Positions 4,002 to 46,885 are shown, counted from the first letter of the stretch. The stretch is 64,000 nucleotides of DNA from Candidatus Magasanikiibacteriota bacterium (GCA_049287025.1 JBAQFA010000005.1:1671-65670); one strand, 5' to 3'. The notes: generated by a model from the sequence alone, not told the origin. A program made the numbers and translations.

Positions 4002-5031
4002 TTTTATTTATATGGGAGATGTTTCAACCTTGGAAGAATATAGAGCATCAAGAGAAGCACAAGAAGGTGCAAAAGTAGAACATAGCGCAGTAGTGAAAAA
4101 AGATCAAAGTCATGAAAAGAAAATAAAAAGATTAAAATCTGACGATAACCGTTTGGATGGAGAACCAAGAATTGATTTAATGACTGAGGAAGGGGATAGA
4201 TGGGCACAAGCAAATTATGAAAGGATAACAGTACCAGACATGGTAAACCAATCAAATATAAGGATTCGTGAAGATGATTTGGCTGGAGCAAAAGAAATTG
4301 TACAACATGTTGGTGAGCCTAAAAAGGCTTTGGCTATGGCTGAGGAAAGACTTCAAGAATCACATCTAGATGCGTTATTGACTGTAGAATTAAAAAATTA
4401 CAGTGAACTTGGGGGAGATGTTTGGGAAGCTAAACCAGGTACTATATATGTTGATGATAATACTCATCCAGTAAAAACTTTTGTTAGTACAGAAAATGCT
4501 ATACAGAGAAATCTTATTATAGCTAAGTCTGGGGCTGAAACAGTGAAAAAAGCTATGACTGGTGATATTAATGTTTCAATTGGTGGGGGTTCATCTCGTT
4601 TTGCTGTCAAAAGGAGTCTAGGGTCAAATATTATAGAAGATAGTGGTCTTGGCTTTACTGTTTGTTGGGTGGCACATACTTCTGAAGGTGAAGTGAGAGT
4701 AGACGTAAATTTTTTATATGGCAGAGAAGAAGAGAGTGCAGAACAAACAACTGTTCAGCAATCTGCTGAAGGACAGGCTGAATTAGAAAAAACATTGTCT
4801 GAAGATGAAAAAATCTTTAAAAGATTTGAAGAAATAAAAGCATCTAGTAAAGATGACGAGACAACAAAGCAAGAAATTTTAGAATATATTTTACATAGTG
4901 GTGTTGAAGTTTCAGAAAGTTTTTATACAGAAGCAATTAAAGATAGTACCTGGATTCCTTCTAGACAAGAGATTGAAGATGCTAAGAGAGAAGCTGTGGA
5001 AGAAGCAGAGAATTTTGCTATGACAGGTTAA
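3985..5031 (+). CDS. Hypothetical acidic protein (348 aa) with no recognisable domain
   Basis: Long ORF with coding-like composition. It overlaps the infB stop, so the likely start is the ATG at ~4012 (MGDVSTLEEY). No motif I can name. Confidence 0.5.
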   Translation: MFLNYNFIYMGDVSTLEEYRASREAQEGAKVEHSAVVKKDQSHEKKIKRLKSDDNRLDGEPRIDLMTEEGDRWAQANYERITVPDMVNQSNIRIREDDLAGAKEIVQHVGEPKKALAMAEERLQESHLDALLTVELKNYSELGGDVWEAKPGTIYVDDNTHPVKTFVSTENAIQRNLIIAKSGAETVKKAMTGDINVSIGGGSSRFAVKRSLGSNIIEDSGLGFTVCWVAHTSEGEVRVDVNFLYGREEESAEQTTVQQSAEGQAELEKTLSEDEKIFKRFEEIKASSKDDETTKQEILEYILHSGVEVSESFYTEAIKDSTWIPSRQEIEDAKREAVEEAENFAMTG

Positions 5032-5586: not shown

Positions 5587-6522
5587 ATGCAAAAATATTG
5601 GAAAATAATTTTGGGGGGAGCAATTCTTATAATCGTGATTGCTTTAGTTTGGATTTTGAAAATATCTTGGATTGGCACTAGTAGTATGTCATATGATGAG
5701 TCAGTAAAATATAGTTTAACCAAAGGCGAGGTGACTGGTGGAGCTGTGGCTCCAATGATGGCCGAGAGAAATATGATGGTGACAGCAGGAGAAGCAAGTT
5801 ATGATACGACAGAGGATTCTGTGCCAGTTAGTCCTACTCAAGATAGATTAATTATCAAAACTGGTTCAATTTCAATGGTAGTGGAAAATGTACGAGAAAC
5901 AATTGCAAAAATTTCGGAGTACACCAAACAAAAGGGTGGTTTTGTTGTTAGTAGTAATGTGGATAAAGTTGGGGTGGCTCCTTATGGTGAGATTGTAGTT
6001 AGAATTCCTGTAACAGTTTTTGATAGCGGAGTGACAGATGTAAAAGCGATGGGTGAAGTGGAAAGCGAAATGGTTAATGGTCAGGATGTGACTGAAGAAT
6101 TTGTTGACCTTGATTCACAACTAAAAAATTTACGCGCTACTGAAACCCAATTTTTGCAAATTATGCAACGAGCAGTAAAGATAGAAGACGTGTTAGCAGT
6201 GCAACGTGAATTGACTTGGGTAAGACGGGATATAGAAACCATGATGGGTAGAATGAAATATCTAAAAGATAGTGCTAGTTTGTCTACTTTGACAATTTAT
6301 TTATCCACTGATCCAGATGTTTTACCAACTGTGGATGATACTAATAAATGGAAACCTTGGGCCGAAGTAAAATCAGCCGTCAGAAGTTTGATTGGAGTAG
6401 GTAAGGGTTTGGTTAATTTTGCAATTTGGCTAGTGGTTTATATTCCTTTGTGGTTTGTGATTGGATTGGTTGTTTGGCTGATTGTGCGAATTATAAAAAA
6501 GAAAAAGAATTTGAACATGTAA
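5587..6522 (+). CDS. Membrane-anchored hypothetical protein (N-terminal and C-terminal TM helices, DUF4349-like architecture)
   Basis: N-terminal hydrophobic segment, extracytoplasmic middle with a coiled-coil-like region, C-terminal TM plus a basic tail (KKKKN). Confidence 0.6.
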   Translation: MQKYWKIILGGAILIIVIALVWILKISWIGTSSMSYDESVKYSLTKGEVTGGAVAPMMAERNMMVTAGEASYDTTEDSVPVSPTQDRLIIKTGSISMVVENVRETIAKISEYTKQKGGFVVSSNVDKVGVAPYGEIVVRIPVTVFDSGVTDVKAMGEVESEMVNGQDVTEEFVDLDSQLKNLRATETQFLQIMQRAVKIEDVLAVQRELTWVRRDIETMMGRMKYLKDSASLSTLTIYLSTDPDVLPTVDDTNKWKPWAEVKSAVRSLIGVGKGLVNFAIWLVVYIPLWFVIGLVVWLIVRIIKKKKNLNM

Positions 6523-6737: not shown

Positions 6738-8000
6738 ATGTCCAACCCATTCGAAAACGCCATGTCACAGCTAGATAAAGCGGCCAAAATCATGAACCTA
6801 GATAAAGGTATTCATGACATTTTAAAACAACCAGATCGCGTGTTAATCGTGTCAATTCCAGTAAAAATGGATAATGGAGAGGTAAGAGTGTTTACTGGCT
6901 ATAGATCACAGTTTAACAACGCTATGGGCCCATATAAGGGTGGTATTAGATATCACCAAAATGTATCAATTGATGAAGTAAAAGCTTTGTCTTTTTGGAT
7001 GATGGTGAAATGTGCGACAGTAAATATTCCTATGGGTGGAGGTAAAGGCGGAATAATTGTTGATTCTAAGACATTGTCAGCTGGTGAACTAGAGAGATTG
7101 TCTCGTGGCTATATCCAAAAGATTTGGCGTGAGATTGGTTCTGATAAAGATGTACCAGCGCCAGATATGTATACTACACCTACTATTATGGGTTGGATGC
7201 GTGATGAATTTGAAAAATTACTAGGTCAGGCTGATCCAGGTGTGATTACTGGCAAAGCGATAAAAGACGGCGGGTCAGAAGGCCGAGAAACTGCCACGGC
7301 TCAAGGCGGTGTCTATGTAGTAAAAGAATTAGCCAAAAAATTAAATTTGAATCCAGCCGTTCGAGGCTCTGAGGAGCCCTCAGACTCTCGAAGAGGAGAA
7401 ACCAAAGTCGCAATTCAGGGTATGGGTAATGTTGGTGGTTTCATGGCTAAGATTTTGAAAAGTGAAGGCTATAAAGTGGTAGCAATTAGTGATTCCAAAG
7501 GCGGTGTGTATGCCGAGGATTTAGATTTGGATACTGTATTTAAACACAAAGAAACAACCGGTTCACTACAAGGCTTAGACGGAGTGCAAAATATTACTAA
7601 TGAAGAATTATTAGAATTACCAGTGGATATTCTTGTACCATCAGCGATGGAAAATCAAATTACCAAAGATAATGTAAATAATATTAAAGCTAAGGTAATT
7701 GTAGAAATGGCTAACGGACCAACCACACCAGAAGCAGATGAAATTTTGAAAGAACGTGGCATTATTCTTGTACCAGATGTTTTGGCCAATGCTGGTGGTG
7801 TGACAGTGTCTTGTTTTGAATGGGAACAAAATATTAAAAATGAACGTTGGAGCGAAGCAGAAGTGTTTACTAAGTTAGAACCAATGATGGTTCAGGCTTT
7901 TGATGAAGTTTGGGAAACAAAAGAAAAATATAGTATTGATATGAGGACAGCGGCGTTTGTGAAGGCAATTGAGAGAGTGGCGAGTAAGACACGGATTTAG
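6738..8000 (+). CDS. gdhA: NAD(P)-dependent glutamate dehydrogenase (Glu/Leu/Phe/Val dehydrogenase family)
   Basis: GGGKGG catalytic glycine-rich motif, GxGNVG Rossmann motif, 420 aa. Confidence 0.9.
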   Translation: MSNPFENAMSQLDKAAKIMNLDKGIHDILKQPDRVLIVSIPVKMDNGEVRVFTGYRSQFNNAMGPYKGGIRYHQNVSIDEVKALSFWMMVKCATVNIPMGGGKGGIIVDSKTLSAGELERLSRGYIQKIWREIGSDKDVPAPDMYTTPTIMGWMRDEFEKLLGQADPGVITGKAIKDGGSEGRETATAQGGVYVVKELAKKLNLNPAVRGSEEPSDSRRGETKVAIQGMGNVGGFMAKILKSEGYKVVAISDSKGGVYAEDLDLDTVFKHKETTGSLQGLDGVQNITNEELLELPVDILVPSAMENQITKDNVNNIKAKVIVEMANGPTTPEADEILKERGIILVPDVLANAGGVTVSCFEWEQNIKNERWSEAEVFTKLEPMMVQAFDEVWETKEKYSIDMRTAAFVKAIERVASKTRI

Positions 8001-8062
8001 ACGGAAAAAAAAGGGATTATACGGAAATAACACAAAAATTGAACTAAAATTTAACAAAAATA

Positions 8063-8096
8063 AAAACGAGTCTCATATTTGTGAGATTCGTTTTAA
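8063..8096 (+). terminator. Rho-independent terminator after gdhA
   Basis: AACGAGTCTCA-tattt-TGAGATTCGTT hairpin (one G-U pair) followed by TTTT. Confidence 0.55.
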
Positions 8097-8119
8097 TTCC
8101 TCTAAAATCTAATCTAATT

Positions 8120-8390
8120 ACAGAGGAATGGTGCCTGCTTTCATGCCAACAGGCGGGCTTTAGAGCGCTTGGCTCTTACATGTCAGCCTGACGGCGAGAC
8201 AGGGTTTGACTTGCGACCTCTCTTTCCAGGATACGCCTGGAAGTTTCAAGGTCGTCATCGTCACCCCATTCACCACCGAAAGGTGAAAGTGCAGCAACTA
8301 GGGATAGGGTGAGCAGAGTGAGAACACCGAGCGCGTCCAGCAAGATAAAACCCCCTTGTGGTCTCGCTGGTTGGTATCCAGTTTAATCTT
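8120..8390. other. GC-rich (~54% GC) ~270-bp island in AT-rich intergenic DNA; candidate small gene or structured RNA
   Basis: Sharp local GC excess. Local hairpins (AGAGC-GCUUG-GCUCU, CCAGG-AUACG-CCUGG, CCAGC...GCUGG followed by a U-run). No ORF of 60 aa or longer. See findings. Confidence 0.4.
8176..8343 (-). CDS. Candidate small membrane protein (55 aa, TTG start) inside the GC-rich island
   Basis: Minus-strand ORF MLDALGVLTLLTLSLVAALSPFGGEWGDDDDLETSRRILEREVASQTLSRRQADM. A strong SD, AAGGGGG, sits 7 nt upstream of the TTG. One TM helix plus an acidic tail. Below the 60-aa cutoff of the ORF track. Confidence 0.25.
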   Translation of the reverse strand: MLDALGVLTLLTLSLVAALSPFGGEWGDDDDLETSRRILEREVASQTLSRRQADM

Positions 8391-8421
8391 TTTTTAATAA
8401 TTTGTCAACCGTATCTGAACC

Positions 8422-9288
8422 TTGCTTTTTTTATTTATTTTAGCTAAAATATCTATATTATTCTTTAGGCAAGTAAAAGCCTTATTTTTGGTTCAAAATA
8501 TGAAATCTGTCGAAGGAAAAATATGGCATGATGAAAAATATGGTGACTTTTTAATCAAGCGGGAATTGTCTAAAAAGAAAATTGCTGAATTGCGTGACCG
8601 TTTTAATCATCCAGTCAACCGTAGAGATTTAATAAAATTTGATGAACGCAAAAATCCTTTTGTTTTGTCACAAGTACCATTTGCAGATTTATTTCTTAGT
8701 GATATCAAGCCACCGCGTGAAGGTCAAAGGTTCGTAGAAGAATTTGAGGCATATAAAAAAAGAATAGCAGAATTTATAAAAGGCAAAAATTTTTTTGATT
8801 TAGGTTGCGGTGAAAATGATTTACTTATTGAGGATTTGGTAGAAGTATTAGCACAATATGGAGCAAATGAGTATGTAGGAGTCGACATATCTCCAAGGAG
8901 AGAAATTTATGATAAAGTTGAGAGACCTGATGGTAAAACTATGGAAATTTATGTTTTGAAAGAAGAAATGTTGAATTTTGTTCGTTCTATTCCAGATAAT
9001 TATGGAGGAAATGTTTTACTTTGTGGAATACAAGAAGATACACATGATGGCTATAATTCTGATTTAGTAAAGAAATATGTGGAGAATATAATTAGTGAAT
9101 TATATCGCATTATGAATACTGGAGATGTTATTATGATTTCAGGACCCTCATTCGAAACTATTAAAGGTTCATTAATTTTTAGTAAAAATAATACAGTAAT
9201 TGATAAAGATGGAAGAGTTTTGTTTATAAAAGAAGAAATTACTGGCGGCAAGGGGAGTGCCGATAGCGTTTATTATAAAAAAGTATAA
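8422..9288 (+). CDS. Hypothetical protein, possible class I SAM-dependent methyltransferase fold
   Basis: FFDLGCGENDL resembles methyltransferase motif I. The likely start is the internal ATG near 8497-8500 (MKSVEGK). Overlaps the leuS start. Confidence 0.45.
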   Translation: MLFLFILAKISILFFRQVKALFLVQNMKSVEGKIWHDEKYGDFLIKRELSKKKIAELRDRFNHPVNRRDLIKFDERKNPFVLSQVPFADLFLSDIKPPREGQRFVEEFEAYKKRIAEFIKGKNFFDLGCGENDLLIEDLVEVLAQYGANEYVGVDISPRREIYDKVERPDGKTMEIYVLKEEMLNFVRSIPDNYGGNVLLCGIQEDTHDGYNSDLVKKYVENIISELYRIMNTGDVIMISGPSFETIKGSLIFSKNNTVIDKDGRVLFIKEEITGGKGSADSVYYKKV

Positions 9289-12200
9289 TTATATGAAAAC
9301 ATATCAGGAATTTTTAAACAATCAAGGCGAAAAGAAATGGCAAAAATATTGGGAAGACAATAAAATTTTTGAAACCACAGAATCTTCGGACAAGGAGAAA
9401 TTTTATGGTCTGATAGAATTTCCTTATCCATCAGGGGCTGGTCTTCATGTTGGTCATCCGCGGCCTTTTACTGCTATGGATGTGATTTGTCGTAAAAAGA
9501 GGATGCAAGGCAAGAATGTTTTGTTCCCAATTGGTTTTGATGCTTTTGGTTTGCCCACAGAAAATTTTGCTATAAAAACTGGTCGTCCGCCAGCCGAAGT
9601 GACAGCCGAGAATATTGCCAATTTTACGCGCCAGTTAAAGATGTTGGGTTATAGCTTTGCTTGGGATAGAGTAGTAGACACTACTGATCCAAAATACTAC
9701 AAATGGACACAATGGATATTTTTACAATTATTTAAACATGGTTTGGCTTATAAAAAAGCCATGCCAATCAATTGGTGTATTTCTTGTAAAATTGGTTTGG
9801 CCAATGAAGAAGTTGTTGACGGTAAATGCGAACGTTGTGGTGGACCAGTAGAAAAGCGCAACAAAGAACAGTGGATGTTAGCAATTACAAAATATGCTGA
9901 TAAATTATTGCAAGGTTTGGAAACAGTTGATTATATTCCTCAAGCCAAGATTCAACAGCAGAATTGGATTGGAAGGTCTGAAGGTATTAATTTTAAACAC
10001 AAAGTAAAAGGCATGGATTTGGAATTTGAAGTTTATGATTCAATCCCGCAAACTTTCATGGCTCAGACTTTTGTGATTATTGCTCCAGAACATCCTTATG
10101 TTTTTGAAATGGTGAAAGGTACTGAGCGTGAAAAAGAGGTAATGGCCTTTGTGGAAAAAATAAAAAATAAAAAAGTTGGCGGAAAATTTGATATAGATAG
10201 TGATATGGAAGGAATTTTTACTGGTTGCTATTCAGAAAATTATTTGGGGATTGGTCGTGATTTACCAATTTGGGTAGCAAGTTTTGCTTTAATGGATTAT
10301 GGCACAGGCATTGTCGGTTGTAGTGCTCATGATGAGCGAGATTATAAGTTTGCCAAAATGTATGATTTACCATTGCATCCAGTATTGTTCCCCAAAGACA
10401 AAGAGTTGGCAGAAAAAGTTCGTAGTACAGAAATATTTTATCGTGAATCAGATGGCTTGTTAGAAGAGCCAATTGATTTTAAAGGTAGAAAGTGGGATGA
10501 AGTAAGATCTGATATTATTCAATATATTGAAGACAAAGGTTTTGGTAAAAAAGCAGTACATTACAAACTTCGCGATTGGGTATTTTCTAGACAGCGTTAT
10601 TGGGGTGAACCAATTCCACTGGTTTATTGTGAGAATTGTGCTAATAAAAAACCAAAAATATTATATATTCATGGAATTTATGGTGGTCCAGATGAAAATT
10701 GGGTACCGTGGTTTAAAAAAGCAATGGAAAATAAGGGATATGAGGTTTTGACTCCAGAATTACCAGACTCAGACAAATTAGTTGATGAAAAAAAATGGAT
10801 TGAAATATTAAAAAATTTACCAATTGATAAGGATGATAAGTTGTTTGTGATTGGTCATAGCTATGGCGCTAGATTTGCTTGTAAGTTTATCGAAGAGAGT
10901 GGAATGAAAGTGAAAAAGTTAATCATGGTTGGACCAACTGGCCCAAGTCAAACTGAAAATAATTATGCCAAATTGCGTGAAGTTGGTTGTAGTGAAGATT
11001 CAATAAAAAGTGTACAAGAATTAAGCAAAGAAAATTTTGATTGGAAAAAATTAAATTCATTGATTAGTAATACAGTAATTTATTTTTCAGATGATGATCC
11101 ATTCATTCCGTTAACCATGGAAGAAAGTTATAAAGAATTAAAACATACTACGAAAAATTTTGTTGGTAAAGGCCACTTTAATAAAAGAGCTGGTGTTTTG
11201 GAATTGCCAGAATTGTTAGAAGAATTTTCTGATGTTAAAAGACAAAAAGTTTTAATTATTCATGGTTTTACTGGTAGAGCTGACAAAAATTGGATGCCTT
11301 GGATGAAAGAAAAATTAGAATTAGCTGGATTTGAAGTGAGAGTTCCTACTATGACCACTACTGATCATCCCGTAATGGAAAAATGGCTAGAAGAACTTTT
11401 GCCACTAGTAAAAGATTTTGATGAGAATGATGTCATTATTGGACATAGTATTGGTGGTAGTACCGCTTTGCATTTGTTAGAACAAATGGAAAATAAAATA
11501 GGTCATCTGTATTTGGTAGCACCAGCAGTAGGAGAATTGGCCGATGAAGAAATTAAAAAGAAAAAAGCTAAAAAGCCAGAGAAAGATTATGACATGGTTA
11601 GGGCTTTTTGGGAAATGCCTATCATTTGGAATAAGATTTTGAAAAAAGTTAACCAGGCTAATGTATTGTATTCTAATACTGACGAAAGTATAAAATCATA
11701 TGGACATGAATTATGGCCTAATGATTGGCAAATAAAATTTTTAGGTAATCACGGTCATTTTGTGGATAAGGAGTATGACGTGTTGTTTGAAAATTTTGTA
11801 ACGGCCAAAAATACTGGCTGGATTCCACTTCCAGAATCAGAATTACCATTGGAATTACCCAAGGTAGAAAAATATGAACCAACTGACAATGGTGAGTCAC
11901 CTTTGGCTGTGATGACTGATTGGGTTAATACCAAATGTCCAGTGTGTGGTGGAGAAGCGAGACGTGAGACTGATACTATGCCAAATTGGGCTGGGAGTTC
12001 TTGGTATTATCTTGCGTATACAATGATGAAAGAAAAAAATGGTGAATATGTTTGGGATAGAGCCAAAATGGATTATTGGAATCCAGTGGATTGGTATAAT
12101 GGGGGAATGGAACATACGGTTTTACATTTGTTGTATTCTAGATTTTGGAATGAATTTTTGTTTGATATTGGACTCGTGCCAACTAGTGAACCATATAAAA

Positions 12201-13030
12201 AACGTACTTCACACGGGATGATTTTGGCGGCTGATGGTGAGAAAATGAGCAAGAGTCGGGGTAATGTAATTAATCCAGACGAAATGGTAGAGAAATTTGG
12301 GACTGATGCTTTCCGGACTTATATAATGTTTATGGGGCCGTTTGATCAGGCGGTAGCCTGGGACACGAATGGGGTTGTGGGCGTACGAAGATTTTTGGAA
12401 AAGGTGTGGAGCATTTTTGATTTTATAAGTGTAAGAAACAAACATTTTGGGAAAGGTGAATGGTGGCCTAGTGAACAGACAGATAAAAAACTTGCAAAAT
12501 TGTTGGAGAAGACCATAAAGAAAGTTGGGGAAGATGTAGAAAAATTATCTTTCAATACGGCTATTAGTCAGTTAATGATATTTGTAAATGGATATATTGG
12601 AGATGTGACAGATAGTTTTGGTAGTCTTAATGATCAAATTCAAAAAATAAAAGAAGAATCTGTCTCTAATCCGAGTCTTGCGAATAATACCGTTATATCT
12701 AAATTTGATTTTGAAAGGTTTATTAAATTACTTTCGCTTTTTGCTCCGCACATCGCCGATGAGATCTGGGAACGACTTGGTAACAAAGGAAGTGTATCAC
12801 AGCAAACTTGGCCAGAATATGATCCAGCGTTAATTATTGATGACGTGATTACTGTAGTGGCACAAGTAAATGGCAAAGTACGGGATGAATTTCAAGTGCC
12901 AGTAGATATTAGTGAAGAGGAAATTAAAACCATGGCTCTCGCTTCAGACAAAGTTCAGAAGTGGTTAGAAGGAAAAGAACCAAAAAAAGTGATTTATGTG
13001 AAGGGGAGACTAGTCTCAATAGTTGTCTAG
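9257..13030 (+). CDS. leuS: Leucyl-tRNA synthetase with a ~430-aa internal insertion of two tandem YdeN/RBBP9-type alpha/beta serine-hydrolase domains
   Basis: HVGH (HIGH) and KMSKS motifs, a CP1 editing domain (MDYGTGIVGCSAHDERDYKFAKMYDL) and a C-terminal anticodon-binding region. At 1257 aa it is far longer than the typical ~800-880. The extra segment at ~10646-11935 carries GHSYGA and GHSIGG nucleophile elbows. Confidence 0.9.
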   Translation: MPIAFIIKKYNYMKTYQEFLNNQGEKKWQKYWEDNKIFETTESSDKEKFYGLIEFPYPSGAGLHVGHPRPFTAMDVICRKKRMQGKNVLFPIGFDAFGLPTENFAIKTGRPPAEVTAENIANFTRQLKMLGYSFAWDRVVDTTDPKYYKWTQWIFLQLFKHGLAYKKAMPINWCISCKIGLANEEVVDGKCERCGGPVEKRNKEQWMLAITKYADKLLQGLETVDYIPQAKIQQQNWIGRSEGINFKHKVKGMDLEFEVYDSIPQTFMAQTFVIIAPEHPYVFEMVKGTEREKEVMAFVEKIKNKKVGGKFDIDSDMEGIFTGCYSENYLGIGRDLPIWVASFALMDYGTGIVGCSAHDERDYKFAKMYDLPLHPVLFPKDKELAEKVRSTEIFYRESDGLLEEPIDFKGRKWDEVRSDIIQYIEDKGFGKKAVHYKLRDWVFSRQRYWGEPIPLVYCENCANKKPKILYIHGIYGGPDENWVPWFKKAMENKGYEVLTPELPDSDKLVDEKKWIEILKNLPIDKDDKLFVIGHSYGARFACKFIEESGMKVKKLIMVGPTGPSQTENNYAKLREVGCSEDSIKSVQELSKENFDWKKLNSLISNTVIYFSDDDPFIPLTMEESYKELKHTTKNFVGKGHFNKRAGVLELPELLEEFSDVKRQKVLIIHGFTGRADKNWMPWMKEKLELAGFEVRVPTMTTTDHPVMEKWLEELLPLVKDFDENDVIIGHSIGGSTALHLLEQMENKIGHLYLVAPAVGELADEEIKKKKAKKPEKDYDMVRAFWEMPIIWNKILKKVNQANVLYSNTDESIKSYGHELWPNDWQIKFLGNHGHFVDKEYDVLFENFVTAKNTGWIPLPESELPLELPKVEKYEPTDNGESPLAVMTDWVNTKCPVCGGEARRETDTMPNWAGSSWYYLAYTMMKEKNGEYVWDRAKMDYWNPVDWYNGGMEHTVLHLLYSRFWNEFLFDIGLVPTSEPYKKRTSHGMILAADGEKMSKSRGNVINPDEMVEKFGTDAFRTYIMFMGPFDQAVAWDTNGVVGVRRFLEKVWSIFDFISVRNKHFGKGEWWPSEQTDKKLAKLLEKTIKKVGEDVEKLSFNTAISQLMIFVNGYIGDVTDSFGSLNDQIQKIKEESVSNPSLANNTVISKFDFERFIKLLSLFAPHIADEIWERLGNKGSVSQQTWPEYDPALIIDDVITVVAQVNGKVRDEFQVPVDISEEEIKTMALASDKVQKWLEGKEPKKVIYVKGRLVSIVV

Positions 13031-28060: not shown

Positions 28061-28070
28061 GCAAAAATAC

Positions 28071-28325
28071 TTTTAGGGAAGCGGGGGGAGCCTCCCGGGT
28101 CATTTCTGACCCTCTGGTGGTTCTTTGTCGCGGTCGATAAGATCGATCCCGCCGTGAAAGCTGTCTGTGACTGCGCCAAAGACGCGGTCTAGGCATGTTT
28201 GGAGCAACTCCATTCTTTTATTTCGGGCACGAGCTCGATCTTCAAGGCTGAGCGTAGCCCAAGCCTCCAAGCACTCGCTCATCTTTCTTCCTCGCAAAGA
28301 GACCTCCTTCCCCCCTAAAAATATT
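28071..28325. mobile_element. GC-rich ~255-bp island bounded by imperfect inverted repeats, almost filled by a 60-65-aa ORF
   Basis: Left TTTTAGGGAAGCGGGGGGAGCCTCC and right GGAGACCTCCTTCCCCCCTAAAAA (RC: TTTTTAGGGGGGAAGGAGGTCTCC). GC is ~55% against a ~34% background. Confidence 0.35.
28100..28282 (-). CDS. Hypothetical small protein (60 aa from the ATG; 65 aa if the upstream TTG is used) encoded within the GC-rich island
   Basis: MSECLEAWATLSLEDRARARNKRMELLQTCLDRVFGAVTDSFHGGIDLIDRDKEPPEGQK. SD GAGGAAG is 4 nt upstream of the ATG. The ORF spans the island between its inverted repeats. Confidence 0.3.
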   Translation of the reverse strand: MSECLEAWATLSLEDRARARNKRMELLQTCLDRVFGAVTDSFHGGIDLIDRDKEPPEGQK

Positions 28326-28331
28326 TTTAGG

Positions 28332-28775
28332 TTATTTTATCAATATTTTTCTTCCTTTGTCAAGATGTTCAATTTTAATCCTAATCACTTTTTTGCTACT
28401 CAATAACTTGGAAATTTTCTCCGGCCACTCAATCAAACAAATTGTATCTGGGTTCCCTAGATAATCTTCAATCCCGATTTCAATTAAATCTTTTTCATCC
28501 TCAAGTCGATAGGTATCAACGTGCACTAATCTTTGAATCTTTGAATCTTTGAATCTTTGAATTTCGTGAACGTTCATCAGTGAAAAAGTCGGACTAGTAA
28601 TATTTTTTTTAATGCCAAAATATTCAGCAATACCTTTGGTTAGAGTCGTTTTGCCAGCACCCAGATTACCTTCAAGTAAAATAATATCACCAGGTTTAAA
28701 TTTTGAAGCGATGCTTTTACCGAGATTTATAGTTTCTTGTTGTGATTTTGTTTTGTATAGCATAGTACACGTCAT
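28332..28775 (-). CDS. tsaE: tRNA threonylcarbamoyladenosine biosynthesis protein TsaE (YjeE ATPase)
   Basis: P-loop GNLGAGKTTLTKGI and the conserved TSPTF motif, 147 aa. Contains an 8-bp tandem repeat (aatctttg x4 at 28528-28563), read in frame as FKDSKIQR. Confidence 0.85.
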   Translation of the reverse strand: MTCTMLYKTKSQQETINLGKSIASKFKPGDIILLEGNLGAGKTTLTKGIAEYFGIKKNITSPTFSLMNVHEIQRFKDSKIQRLVHVDTYRLEDEKDLIEIGIEDYLGNPDTICLIEWPEKISKLLSSKKVIRIKIEHLDKGRKILIK

Positions 28776-46015: not shown

Positions 46016-46885
46016 ATGGTTAAGGTTGCTTGGTTTGGTATACACACTGGTGAAGAACCGCCTTTAATCCCTGCTGGGGGGATTTTTTTTACTGGGTGTA
46101 ATTTGCGGTGTGTGTTTTGTCAGAATTATCAAATTTCTCAAGAAAATTTGGGAAAATTTTACAGTATAGAAGAATTAGCCAACATAATGCTTGATTTGCA
46201 AACCCAGGGTGCGGTGAATATTGATTTAGTGACGCCGACGATTTGGTGGAAGCAAATTAAACCGGCCATAATTTTGGCGCGTGAAAGGGGACTAACTCTA
46301 TCAATCGTTTGGAATTCAAATGGCTTTGATAGCTTAGAAATTTTACAGGAGATGAAAGGTTTGGTAGATATTTATTTACCAGATTTTAAATACAGTGATG
46401 ATGAAATTGCTTTTAAATATTCTGGTATAAAAAATTATGTTGAGACTACTAAATTAGCAATCAAAGAAATGTTGGATCAAGTTAATTATTTACAAATTGA
46501 AAATGGTATTGCGACTAGGCCCGCCCGCCACGCAAGCCAGCCCCGCCTATCACAGCCTGGCACTGGCGAGCAGGTTGCTGGCGTTGCGGGCAGGGGATTA
46601 ATTGTTCGTCATATGGTTTTGCCCAATAATTTGGCTAATAGTTTTGGTGTATTGCAAATGTTATCGGAGATCGATAATAAAATTCATGTTAGTCTCATGA
46701 ACCAATATTTTCCTATGCATCATGCGAATGAATATCCAGAAATAAATAGAATTGTGAGCGATGTTGAATTTAATCAAGTTTATGATTATTTGCAAGAACT
46801 TGGATTTACAAATGGCTGGGTACAGGGTGAAAAGAGTCAACAATTTTTAATTCCAGATTTTAGAAAAGAAGAGCCATTTAATTGA
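46016..46885 (+). CDS. Radical SAM protein (PflA-like / AmmeMemoRadiSam-type activating enzyme)
   Basis: GCNLRCVFCQNYQIS CxxxCxxC cluster in the PflA-like context. Carries a GC-rich in-frame insertion at 46516-46600. Confidence 0.7.
   Translation: MVKVAWFGIHTGEEPPLIPAGGIFFTGCNLRCVFCQNYQISQENLGKFYSIEELANIMLDLQTQGAVNIDLVTPTIWWKQIKPAIILARERGLTLSIVWNSNGFDSLEILQEMKGLVDIYLPDFKYSDDEIAFKYSGIKNYVETTKLAIKEMLDQVNYLQIENGIATRPARHASQPRLSQPGTGEQVAGVAGRGLIVRHMVLPNNLANSFGVLQMLSEIDNKIHVSLMNQYFPMHHANEYPEINRIVSDVEFNQVYDYLQELGFTNGWVQGEKSQQFLIPDFRKEEPFN
46516..46600. repeat. GC-rich inverted-repeat insertion, in-frame in the radical SAM gene
   Basis: GGCCCGCCCGCCACGCAAGCC ... GGCGTTGCGGGCAGGGG arms (GCCCGCCACGC / GCGTTGCGGGC). 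Encodes RPARHASQPRLSQPGTGEQVAGVAGRG. ~70% GC. Confidence 0.5.

What the first reader, a model, noticed from the sequence alone, without database searches (positions are those of the whole stretch)
8120..8390. GC-rich ~270-bp island downstream of gdhA: cryptic small gene (55-aa membrane peptide) or unclassified structured RNA
This block is ~54% GC inside ~30% GC intergenic DNA and has no ORF of 60 aa or longer. There are multiple local hairpins (AGAGC/GCUCU, CCAGG-AUACG-CCUGG, CCAGC...GCUGG followed by UUUUUUU). The minus strand carries a well-formed small gene. It has SD AAGGGGG, a 7-nt spacer and a TTG start at 8343. It encodes MLDALGVLTLLTLSLVAALSPFGGEWGDDDDLETSRRILEREVASQTLSRRQADM, one TM helix plus an acidic tail, and stops at 8176. 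I tested RNase P RNA, SRP RNA, tmRNA and a T-box leader for leuS. The hallmark motifs of all four are absent (see the rejected list). The element is therefore either a horizontally acquired small-protein gene, possibly a type I toxin-like peptide with an antisense RNA, or an RNA family I cannot name.
Basis: seen in the sequence. Interest (0 to 1): 0.55.

Follow-up and report, generated by a model that had tools for sequence, protein, structure and literature searches.

The report
Strain-specific foreign mini-gene for membrane peptide
The GC-rich block after gdhA is not a conserved RNA but a strain-specific piece of foreign-looking DNA that most likely carries its own promoter, ribosome-binding site and a 55-residue membrane peptide gene, sitting in a slot where related bacteria hold other, unrelated GC-rich mini-genes.

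Summary
Window 8132-8385 is 54% GC in a 34% GC Candidatus Magasanikiibacteriota genome, it has no ORF above 55 aa, and the hairpins, SD and TTG ORF are as described.

It matches no Rfam family, tRNA or tmRNA. It is also not conserved. In the closest relative the flanks are 85-90% identical, but homology stops at 8033 and resumes at 8438. That relative holds about 800 bp of unrelated GC-rich DNA in between.

Four further gdhA-syntenic lineages (five in all, besides the window) carry yet other unrelated GC-rich blocks in this slot. Several of these encode promoter-driven, SD-led small membrane peptides.

ORF length alone means nothing here, because 51-53% of shuffles give 55 aa or more. The strong SD (-11.2 kcal/mol; 0 of 40 host genes reach -8), the N-terminal TM helix and a 10/12 sigma-70 promoter on the same strand are jointly rare (0 of 1500 shuffles).

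The peptide has no homologue in any database searched.

Best reading: a horizontally acquired orphan small-membrane-protein cassette at an insertion hot spot. It resembles a type I toxin in architecture only. A new structured RNA is unlikely. Interest is modest.

The parts
8034..8437 (.). Strain-specific cassette. This is the whole stretch with no homology to the closest relative. It runs from the gdhA terminator region to just before the conserved promoter/5' region of the 262-aa gene.
   Evidence: blastn of L003 against the window aligns up to window 8033 and again from 8438 (63 nt, 100% identical). Nothing in between aligns; the relative's allele is identical in four independent assemblies.
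8132..8385 (.). GC-rich core (53.9% GC).
8380..8408 (-). Sigma-70-type promoter: TTGACA (8408..8403), 17-nt spacer, TAAACT (8385..8380). The predicted transcription start is near 8373.
   Evidence: 10 of 12 matches, the best site in 7900-8600. Analogous sites of 10-11/12 precede the minus-strand GC blocks in L003 and at window 28363..28334.
8337..8370 (-). 5' leader hairpin CCAGCGAG...CUUGCUGG. It encloses the SD and pairs the UUG start codon.
   Evidence: -17.5 kcal/mol for 8325-8373, z = -2.3.
8351..8357 (-). Shine-Dalgarno AAGGGGG, 7 nt upstream of the TTG start.
   Evidence: duplex with the anti-SD is -11.2 kcal/mol. Host genes have a median of +0.6 and none of 40 reaches -8.
8176..8343 (-). 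55-aa ORF (TTG start, TAA stop): MLDALGVLTLLTLSLVAALSPFGGEWGDDDDLETSRRILEREVASQTLSRRQADM.
   Evidence: GC at codon positions 1/2/3 is 0.71/0.455/0.49. Codon-phase chi-square against shuffles gives p=0.066. No homologue found.
8278..8334 (-). Codons for the predicted N-terminal transmembrane helix (residues about 4-22).
   Evidence: maximum Kyte-Doolittle 19-residue mean is 2.11. AlphaFold2 single-sequence model has a helix at 4-19 and a second helix at 29-54 (mean pLDDT 78).
8215..8253 (-). Internal hairpin (GACCUU...UUCCAGG-CGUAU-CCUGGAA...AGGUC) inside the coding region.
   Evidence: -16.6 kcal/mol, z = -3.6.
8132..8176 (-). 3' UTR with two GC hairpins: AGAGC-CAAGC-GCUCU (overlaps the stop codon) and GCCUG...CAGGC.
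8096..8129 (.). AT-rich hairpin ATTCCTCT...AGAGGAAT between the GC core and the terminator.
   Evidence: (I7).
8063..8094 (.). Bidirectional intrinsic terminator shared by gdhA (+) and the small gene (-). Its sequence differs from the terminator in every relative.
   Evidence: (I1), 58: the 8055-8135 minus strand folds at -23.7 kcal/mol, z = -5.4. Relatives' terminators were read.
8079..8108 (+). Weak promoter-like site (TTGTGA-18-TAAAAT). It could give an RNA antisense to the 3' part of the small gene. Speculative.
   Evidence: 9 of 12 matches. Such sites are common in AT-rich DNA.
8366..8396 (+). Weak terminator-like hairpin plus T-run on the + strand.
   Evidence: 5 pairs, 3 of them G-C.

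Best explanation
The island is the body of a small, strain-specific, horizontally acquired gene cassette (about 400 bp, 8034-8437). It sits in an insertion hot spot immediately downstream of gdhA.

Proposed layout on the minus strand:
- A sigma-70 promoter (8408..8380) starts a roughly 310-nt mRNA.
- A 5' hairpin holds a strong Shine-Dalgarno sequence and the TTG start codon.
- The ORF encodes a 55-residue bitopic peptide: an N-terminal transmembrane helix, then Trp, an Asp4 cluster, and a charged C-terminal helix.
- Several 3' hairpins and the bidirectional gdhA terminator end the transcript.

What is shown: the anatomy, the foreign composition, the strain specificity, and the recurrence of analogous but unrelated cassettes in the same slot in relatives.

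What is inferred: that the cassette is transcribed and translated, and that the peptide inserts into the membrane.

The most likely role is an accessory small membrane protein of the type I toxin, exclusion or immunity kind. Translation would be held down by the start-codon-burying 5' hairpin and possibly by antisense transcription. I put the toxin sub-claim alone at about 0.2.
For: 1. Strain specificity and hot spot.
- Flanks are 85-90% identical to relative A, but 8034-8437 has no counterpart. About 800 bp of unrelated GC-rich DNA sits there instead.
- L018, L019/L020, L011-13 and L015/L021 each carry other unrelated GC-rich blocks directly after the gdhA terminator.
- More distant genomes have gdhA followed directly by fpg or other genes.

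2. Foreign signature.
- 54% against 34% GC. GC3 is 0.49 against 0.27. Codon preference is -0.30 against +0.07 to +0.29.
- SD duplex is -11.2 kcal/mol, whereas 0 of 40 host genes reach -8.
- All cassette ORFs in relatives are also SD-led, at -5.6 to -12.1 kcal/mol.

3. Gene-like features beyond chance.
- In 1500 dinucleotide shuffles, an ORF of 55 aa or more with SD at or below -8 occurs in 1.8%, with a KD19 of 2.0 or more in 0.27%, and with both in none.
- Among all 21 real ORFs of 40 aa or more in every frame of all the GC blocks, only three combine a strong SD and a TM-grade segment: win55, L003_62 and L019_56. All three lie on the strand convergent with gdhA.

4. Promoter and terminator.
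- The 10/12 promoter is correctly placed. Promoters of 10-11/12 precede the L003 blocks and the window's second island.
- The terminator lies downstream.

5. Sister cassettes are real genes.
- Codon-phase p is 0.0013 for L003_62 and below 0.0003 for the L011 gene.
- L011 and L021 differ only by hydrophobic-to-hydrophobic changes in TM1.
- JGI and NCBI annotators called the 62-aa gene.
Against: - No homologue of the peptide or of the DNA was found anywhere, so no dN/dS or covariation test is possible (47/48).
- ORF length itself is not significant, and codon-phase periodicity is only marginal (p=0.066).
- Gene callers did not call the ORF in the source assemblies, and the peptide is absent from the 15-billion-protein collection.
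- The start codon is TTG and is buried in a hairpin.
- The host hardly uses SD sequences, so it is uncertain that an SD-led gene is translated there.
- Some GC blocks in the same slot (L003 block 1, the L015 insert) have no credible ORF. GC-rich DNA can therefore lodge here without encoding anything.
- No expression data are available.
Confidence: 0.55

Rival explanations
1. Inert foreign or filler DNA. A fragment of GC-richer DNA, taken up by transformation or left by a decayed mobile element, lodged in a permissive convergent-terminator slot. The ORF may be a relic of a donor gene, or partly chance, and it does nothing in this host.
For: - Unique sequence with no relatives.
- ORF-less GC blocks occupy the same slot in relatives: L003 block 1 with a tRNA 3'-half-like piece, and the L015/L021 215-bp insert.
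- GC-rich palindromic inserts occur even inside gdhA and a radical-SAM gene. This shows a general influx of GC-rich DNA.
- The organism encodes ComEC nearby. Patescibacteria are reported to carry much horizontally acquired DNA (PMC12455944).
Against: - A promoter, a strong SD at correct spacing, a start codon, a TM helix and a terminator all lie in register on one strand. This was found in none of 1500 shuffles.
- The same combination recurs in unrelated cassettes of two other lineages.
- Streamlined genomes tend to delete useless DNA (established knowledge, not tested here).
Confidence: 0.25
2. A strain-specific structured non-coding RNA on either strand. Examples would be an sRNA or antisense regulator, or a dual-function RNA whose ORF is incidental.
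For: - GC-rich intergenic blocks in AT-rich genomes are a classic ncRNA signal (PMC11109978 uses this principle).
- Several stable local hairpins are present.
- The predicted minus transcript folds with z = -5.0.
- L003 block 1 in the same slot has a promoter but no ORF.
Against: - No Rfam hit in the island even at E<=10, none in the whole window at gathering threshold, and no tRNA or tmRNA.
- Not conserved even in a relative with 85-90% identical flanks.
- The GC core folds at z = -2.1/-2.5, close to host coding controls of -2.0 to +1.5.
- The -5.0 value comes from the two AT-rich 3' hairpins, one of them the terminator.
- The SD and TM statistics favour coding.
Confidence: 0.12
3. A cis-regulatory leader (T-box, riboswitch or attenuator) on the + strand for the downstream 262-aa gene and leuS.
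For: - It lies upstream of the 262-aa gene and leuS on the same strand as those genes.
- A weak + strand terminator-like hairpin with a T-run is at 8366-8396.
Against: - No T-box or riboswitch match at E<=10.
- Relative A keeps the 63 nt immediately upstream of the 262-aa gene 100% identical but has completely different DNA where the island is.
- L011 and L008 have other genes there.
Confidence: 0.02

Closest known systems
Type I toxin-antitoxin toxins of the Fst/Ldr kind and the B. subtilis TxpA/BsrG kind (criteria in Fozo et al. 2010, PMC2887945)
   Same: - Peptide under 70 aa with an N-terminal TM helix and a charged/polar C-terminal part.
- A tryptophan just after the TM helix followed by a cluster of charged residues (W26, D28-D31). 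PMC2887945 describes this as the Ldr/Fst signature.
- Own promoter and a structured mRNA whose 5' hairpin buries the start codon.
- Convergent arrangement across a bidirectional terminator.
- Missed by gene callers.
   Different: - No HMM match to any toxin family in Pfam, NCBIfam or PADLOC.
- The C-terminal tail (about 30 aa, acidic) is longer than in Fst or Ldr.
- No credible antitoxin sRNA gene, only a 9/12 promoter-like site.
- Single copy, with no tandem repeats or paralogues.
- Toxicity untested.
Strain-specific intergenic islets carrying small toxic-peptide loci, for example the E. coli O157:H7 yehI-yehL Z3289/Z3290 region (0.3 kb in MG1655 against 1.2 kb in EDL933; PMC2887945)
   Same: An intergenic region whose length and content differ between close relatives because a small hydrophobic-peptide locus is present in some and absent in others.
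   Different: - Here each lineage has a different, unrelated cassette rather than presence or absence of one family.
- The cassettes are strongly GC-shifted and SD-led in a host that is AT-rich and nearly SD-less.
GC-rich intergenic structured ncRNAs found by GC/length screens of AT-rich genomes (PMC11109978)
   Same: A GC-rich island in an AT-rich intergenic region, with hairpins, a promoter and a terminator.
   Different: No conservation, no covariation data possible, no Rfam family, and coding-type features are present.

Membership tests
Type I toxin-antitoxin system (toxin component) | Peptide under 70 aa with a predicted transmembrane segment | tested here: met
   55 aa. Maximum KD19 is 2.11. 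AlphaFold2 models a helix at 4-19. Criterion taken from PMC2887945.
Type I toxin-antitoxin system (toxin component) | Polar/charged or aromatic C-terminal region after the TM helix | tested here: met
   The sequence after residue 24 is EWGDDDDLETSRRILEREVASQTLSRRQADM.
Type I toxin-antitoxin system (toxin component) | An antisense or trans-encoded sRNA antitoxin that pairs with the toxin mRNA | tested here: inconclusive
   Only a 9/12 promoter-like site on the + strand (8079-8108) and a weak terminator-like site (8366-8396) were found. No expression data.
Type I toxin-antitoxin system (toxin component) | Growth arrest or killing on overexpression | not testable with these tools
   Needs an experiment.
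Fst/Ldr, Hok, TxpA, BsrG, TisB, Ibs and other known toxin families | Sequence or profile similarity to the family | tested here: not met
   Pfam returned 0 families at E<=0.1. NCBIfam returned 0 at E<=1, PADLOC 0 and PHROGs 0.
Fst/Ldr superfamily | Conserved Trp after the TM helix followed by a cluster of charged residues (PMC2887945) | tested here: inconclusive
   W26 followed by DDDD is present by inspection. This is a short motif without profile support.
Known structured RNA families (RNase P, SRP, tmRNA, 6S, T-box, riboswitches, introns; Rfam 15) | Covariance-model match | tested here: not met
   No match at gathering threshold in the 64 kb. No match overlapping 8132-8385 at E<=10. ARAGORN found nothing.
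Conserved structured ncRNA (any, including unnamed) | Conservation with compensatory changes in related genomes | tested here: not met
   The island is absent from the closest relative and from all other loci fetched. No copy was found in JGI metagenomes, GTDB genomes or IMG/VR through peptide-pattern scans.
MITE / insertion sequence | Terminal inverted repeats, target-site duplication and multiple copies | tested here: not met
   Only low-complexity AT-rich inverted repeats flank the cassette. There is no second copy in the window or the loci. The second island at 28079-28316 does have 15-16-nt flanking repeats.
Double-glycine-leader bacteriocin | Hydrophilic 15-24-aa leader ending in GG, followed by a cationic or hydrophobic mature peptide | tested here: not met
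   A GG is present at residues 23-24. However, the preceding segment is a hydrophobic TM-like helix and the following part is strongly acidic (sequence; the criterion is from general knowledge).

The most novel reading that the evidence does not exclude
The site just after the gdhA terminator may be a dedicated capture or exchange site in this Magasanikbacteria clade. There, unrelated GC-rich cassettes are repeatedly gained and swapped. Each cassette has its own sigma-70 promoter and an SD-led small membrane peptide. The host is AT-rich and almost SD-less. This would be a mini-locus of interchangeable membrane toxins, exclusion factors or immunity factors, possibly the first type I toxin-like modules described in the Candidate Phyla Radiation. 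The 55-aa peptide would be one allele.
Probability: 0.15. Interest if true: 0.6.

Novelty: new member of a known kind. Interest (0 to 1): 0.33.

Why it matters
If the cassette is expressed, it adds an orphan small membrane peptide to the accessory genome of an uncultured, ultra-small bacterium. Little is known about how such organisms compete, defend themselves or interact with hosts.

The wider pattern is the more useful lead. One intergenic slot is filled with different GC-rich, Shine-Dalgarno-led mini-genes in each lineage. That gives a concrete, testable place to study gene influx in Patescibacteria.

The case also carries a caution for ncRNA screens. A GC-rich island in AT-rich intergenic DNA need not be a structured RNA.

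Tried and rejected
Known RNAs
- Rfam at gathering threshold over the whole window, at E<=10 over 7950-8550 and on relatives, plus ARAGORN, found nothing in the island. The only weak hits fall on the AT-rich terminator.
- RNase P-like resemblances seen by eye on the + strand (AGAGGAAUGG; the CCAGGAUACGCCUGG hairpin resembling P8) were dropped for lack of any covariance-model support.

Homologues of the peptide
- 5.8-billion-cluster word search: none.
- phmmer against 1.84 billion representatives: 8 hits, all to internally repeated proteins sharing a GGEWS-x-DD-type motif. These are not homologues.
- JGI metagenome, GTDB genome and IMG/VR pattern scans: none.

Homologues of the DNA
- blastn against phages and plasmids: none.

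Anchoring on the neighbouring 262-aa gene
- Only two clusters exist, and none is in GTDB representatives.

Similarity among the GC blocks of different lineages
- None by blastn or tblastx. One tblastx hit at E=0.04 is in the wrong frame.
- A short TM-segment resemblance between win55 (LTLSLVAALSPFG) and the L019 56-aa peptide (LTLSVAALCLFG) is not supported by BLASTP.

Other checks
- Repeats or terminal inverted repeats around the island: only AT-rich low-complexity matches.
- Phage or plasmid origin of sister cassettes: no matches.
- A planned scan for the second island's context in relatives was lost to a tool error that consumed the last metagenome scan.

Full report
**Organism and observation.** The window comes from a Candidatus Magasanikiibacteriota (CPR/Patescibacteria) metagenome-assembled genome. 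Overall GC is 34.3%. The block 8132-8385 is 53.9% GC. In 150-nt windows it peaks at 0.56, above the 99.9th percentile for the window. It lies between gdhA (6738..8000, +) and a 262-aa gene of unknown function (8500..9288, +) that precedes leuS. The longest ORF in it is the 55-aa minus-strand ORF 8176..8343. The SD (AAGGGGG, 8357..8351), the 7-nt spacer, the TTG start, the TAA stop and the listed hairpins are all there.

**Known RNAs.** Rfam 15 gives no hit at gathering thresholds anywhere in the 64 kb. It gives no hit overlapping the GC core even at E<=10. The few weak hits fall on the AT-rich gdhA terminator. ARAGORN finds no tRNA or tmRNA.

**Comparative evidence, the decisive result.** The neighbouring 262-aa protein has only one other cluster in 5.8 billion, at 84% identity. 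Its contigs (L003-L007, four independent assemblies, identical to each other here) are 85-90% identical to the window in all flanking genes. Homology stops at window 8033 and resumes at 8438, where 63 nt are 100% identical. In between, the window has 404 bp and the relative has 798 bp of unrelated sequence. That sequence consists of two other GC-rich blocks.

Using GDH relatives I fetched further lineages:
- L018 (GDH 85% identical) has a different GC-rich block after the gdhA terminator.
- L019/L020 (83%) have two blocks of 60-69% GC.
- L011-13 (81%) have a 62% GC block that is plainly an 85-aa two-TM protein gene.
- L015/L021 carry that gene plus an extra GC-rich insert of about 215 bp.

None of these blocks resembles another lineage's block at the DNA or six-frame level. 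More distant genomes have gdhA followed directly by fpg or other genes.

The island is therefore not a conserved element. It is one allele of a hypervariable slot that repeatedly receives GC-rich DNA. This rules out a housekeeping RNA and a cis-regulatory leader for the downstream genes.

**Is the ORF real?** ORF length is uninformative. A complete ORF of 55 aa or more appears in 51-53% of dinucleotide shuffles of the block. Other features are not expected by chance:
- The SD/anti-SD duplex is -11.2 kcal/mol. Only 1.8% of shuffles have an ORF of 55 aa or more with -8 or better.
- The 19-residue hydrophobicity maximum is 2.11. Only 0.27% of shuffles have such an ORF with 2.0 or more, and none of 1500 has both features.
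- As an empirical control I listed every real ORF of 40 aa or more in all frames of all the GC blocks (21 ORFs). Only three combine a strong SD and a TM-grade segment. These are this ORF, the 62-aa ORF of relative A and a 56-aa ORF of L019. All three lie on the strand convergent with gdhA.
- Codon-phase periodicity is marginal for this ORF (p=0.066). It is clear for the 62-aa ORF (p=0.0013) and for the L011 gene (p<0.0003), and absent from ORF-less blocks.
- The L011 gene differs from its L021 copy only by hydrophobic-for-hydrophobic changes in TM1. Cassettes in this slot can therefore be genuine membrane-protein genes.

**Expression signals.** A 10/12 sigma-70-type promoter (TTGACA-17-TAAACT, 8408..8380) points into the island on the minus strand. 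Equivalent 10-11/12 promoters precede both minus-strand blocks of relative A and the window's second island. The predicted mRNA (8373 to about 8055) has these parts:
- a 5' hairpin that encloses the SD and pairs the UUG start;
- an internal hairpin;
- two GC hairpins in the 3' UTR;
- an AT-rich hairpin;
- the bidirectional terminator shared with gdhA.

**Foreign signature.** Codon preference relative to host genes is -0.30, against +0.07 to +0.29 for 14 host genes. GC3 is 0.49 against 0.27. This genome barely uses Shine-Dalgarno sequences. Of 40 host genes none reaches -8 kcal/mol, and the median is +0.6. By contrast, every cassette ORF examined in this slot is SD-led, at -5.6 to -12.1 kcal/mol. 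Composition, codon usage and translation signal all point to a donor unlike the host. Horizontal acquisition is common in Patescibacteria (PMC12455944), and a ComEC gene lies 5 kb away.

**Orphan status.** The peptide has no relative in any search:
- the 5.8-billion-cluster search;
- JGI metagenome contigs;
- GTDB species representatives;
- IMG/VR;
- Pfam, PHROGs, NCBIfam and PADLOC.

A full phmmer pass over 1.84 billion representatives returned only repeat proteins that share a GGEWS-x-DD-like motif. The DNA has no match in phage or plasmid collections. The exact peptide was never called as a gene.

**RNA alternative.** The GC core folds with z = -2.1 on the + strand and -2.5 on the - strand. 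Six host coding segments of the same length give -2.0 to +1.5. The z = -5.0 of the whole predicted transcript comes from the two AT-rich 3' hairpins. With no homologues, covariation cannot be tested. A strain-specific sRNA or a dual-function RNA cannot be excluded, because relative A's first block has a promoter and no ORF. It is the less economical reading for this block.

**Mechanism.** The anatomy fits the published profile of type I toxins: under 70 aa, one TM helix, a polar or charged C-terminus, distant from flanking genes, and missed by annotation. PMC2887945 also describes a Trp after the TM helix followed by a charged cluster in Ldr/Fst. The start-codon-burying 5' hairpin and the convergent arrangement across a bidirectional terminator also fit. 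Against this, there is no family membership, no paralogue or tandem copy and no convincing antitoxin gene.

My assessment:
- Real, horizontally acquired small-membrane-protein cassette: about 0.55.
- Type I toxin-like role: the preferred guess for its function, about 0.2.
- Inert foreign DNA: about 0.25.
- Non-coding RNA: about 0.12.

**Verdict.** The "new RNA family" reading is not supported. The element is an orphan member of a familiar kind, namely strain-specific islets carrying small hydrophobic-peptide genes. The recurring, unrelated, GC-rich, SD-led cassettes in one slot of an SD-poor CPR genome are the most interesting aspect.

Noticed in passing
window 28063-28331 (GC block 28079-28316): A second intergenic GC-rich island (55% GC) lies between convergent maf and tsaE. 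On the minus strand it has an 11/12 promoter (28363..28334, with TG) and a soluble 60/65-aa ORF with a very strong SD (-12.4 kcal/mol for the TTG start at 28297). It is flanked by a 15-nt direct repeat (AAAAATACTTTTAGGG / AAAAATATTTTTAGG) and a 16-nt, 94% complementary inverted repeat. This looks like an insertion footprint.
   Followed up: partly
window 7355-7393 (inside gdhA): A 39-nt GC-rich palindrome (arms 7360-7374 and 7378-7392) is inserted in frame in gdhA, adding 13 residues. It is absent from L003 and L011. Nearly all of about 120 GDH relatives are 407-410 aa, against 420 aa here.
   Followed up: partly
window 46510-46600 (inside the radical-SAM ORF 46016..46885): A GC-rich in-frame insert with 18-nt inverted arms (46520-46537 and 46577-46594) sits in an otherwise AT-rich gene. 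Together with the gdhA insert, it suggests a genome-wide influx of short GC-rich palindromic DNA.
   Followed up: partly
window 9257-13030 (leuS); L003, L005, L006, L008, L011: LeuRS is 1257 aa here, with two alpha/beta-hydrolase (Ser_hydrolase) domains inserted after the editing domain. Close relatives have one such domain (1003-1015 aa), none (809-829 aa) or a NUDIX domain (957 aa). L005 and L006 share identical gdhA and intergenic DNA but differ in the LeuRS insert.
   Followed up: no
whole window (40 genes sampled): Host genes have essentially no Shine-Dalgarno sequences. The median anti-SD duplex energy is +0.6 kcal/mol and none of 40 reaches -8. Their upstream regions are poorer in SD-like motifs than random genomic 17-mers.
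   Followed up: partly
L003 5300-5340 and about 5660-5675 (minus strand): Relative A's first GC block contains a near-perfect tRNA 3' half (GAGGTC-GGCAG-TTCAAGT-CTGCC-TAGGCCC-A). The 3' UTR of its 62-aa gene has a D-arm-like GCTCAGTTGGTTTAGC. ARAGORN and Rfam call no tRNA. This may be a remnant attachment site or a captured fragment.
   Followed up: partly
L015 5290-5505 and L021 (homologous position): A GC-rich insert of about 215 bp with no credible ORF lies between the gdhA terminator and the promoter of the 85-aa gene. It is absent from the otherwise near-identical L011.
   Followed up: partly
L011 6392-6649 compared with L021 4600-4857: The 85-aa two-TM gene differs between two lineages only in codons 8-23 (11 codons; 8 hydrophobic-to-hydrophobic replacements). 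The rest of the gene and its 3' UTR are identical. This is a hypervariable or recombined patch in TM1.
   Followed up: partly
L019 2357-2790 (minus strand): A GC-rich block (60-69% GC) carries two tandem small membrane-protein ORFs (56 aa and 68 aa) with very strong SDs (GGGAGGGAGG and AAGGGGGG). The annotation instead calls an 86-aa ORF on the opposite strand, which is probably a miscall.
   Followed up: partly
window 4017-5029 compared with L003 1334-2196: The gene after infB (348 aa here, 289 aa in the relative, no Pfam family in either) is not homologous between the two otherwise syntenic genomes. This is a second variable slot.
   Followed up: no
window 1-64000: No tRNA gene and no Rfam family at gathering threshold were found in 64 kb.
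   Followed up: no
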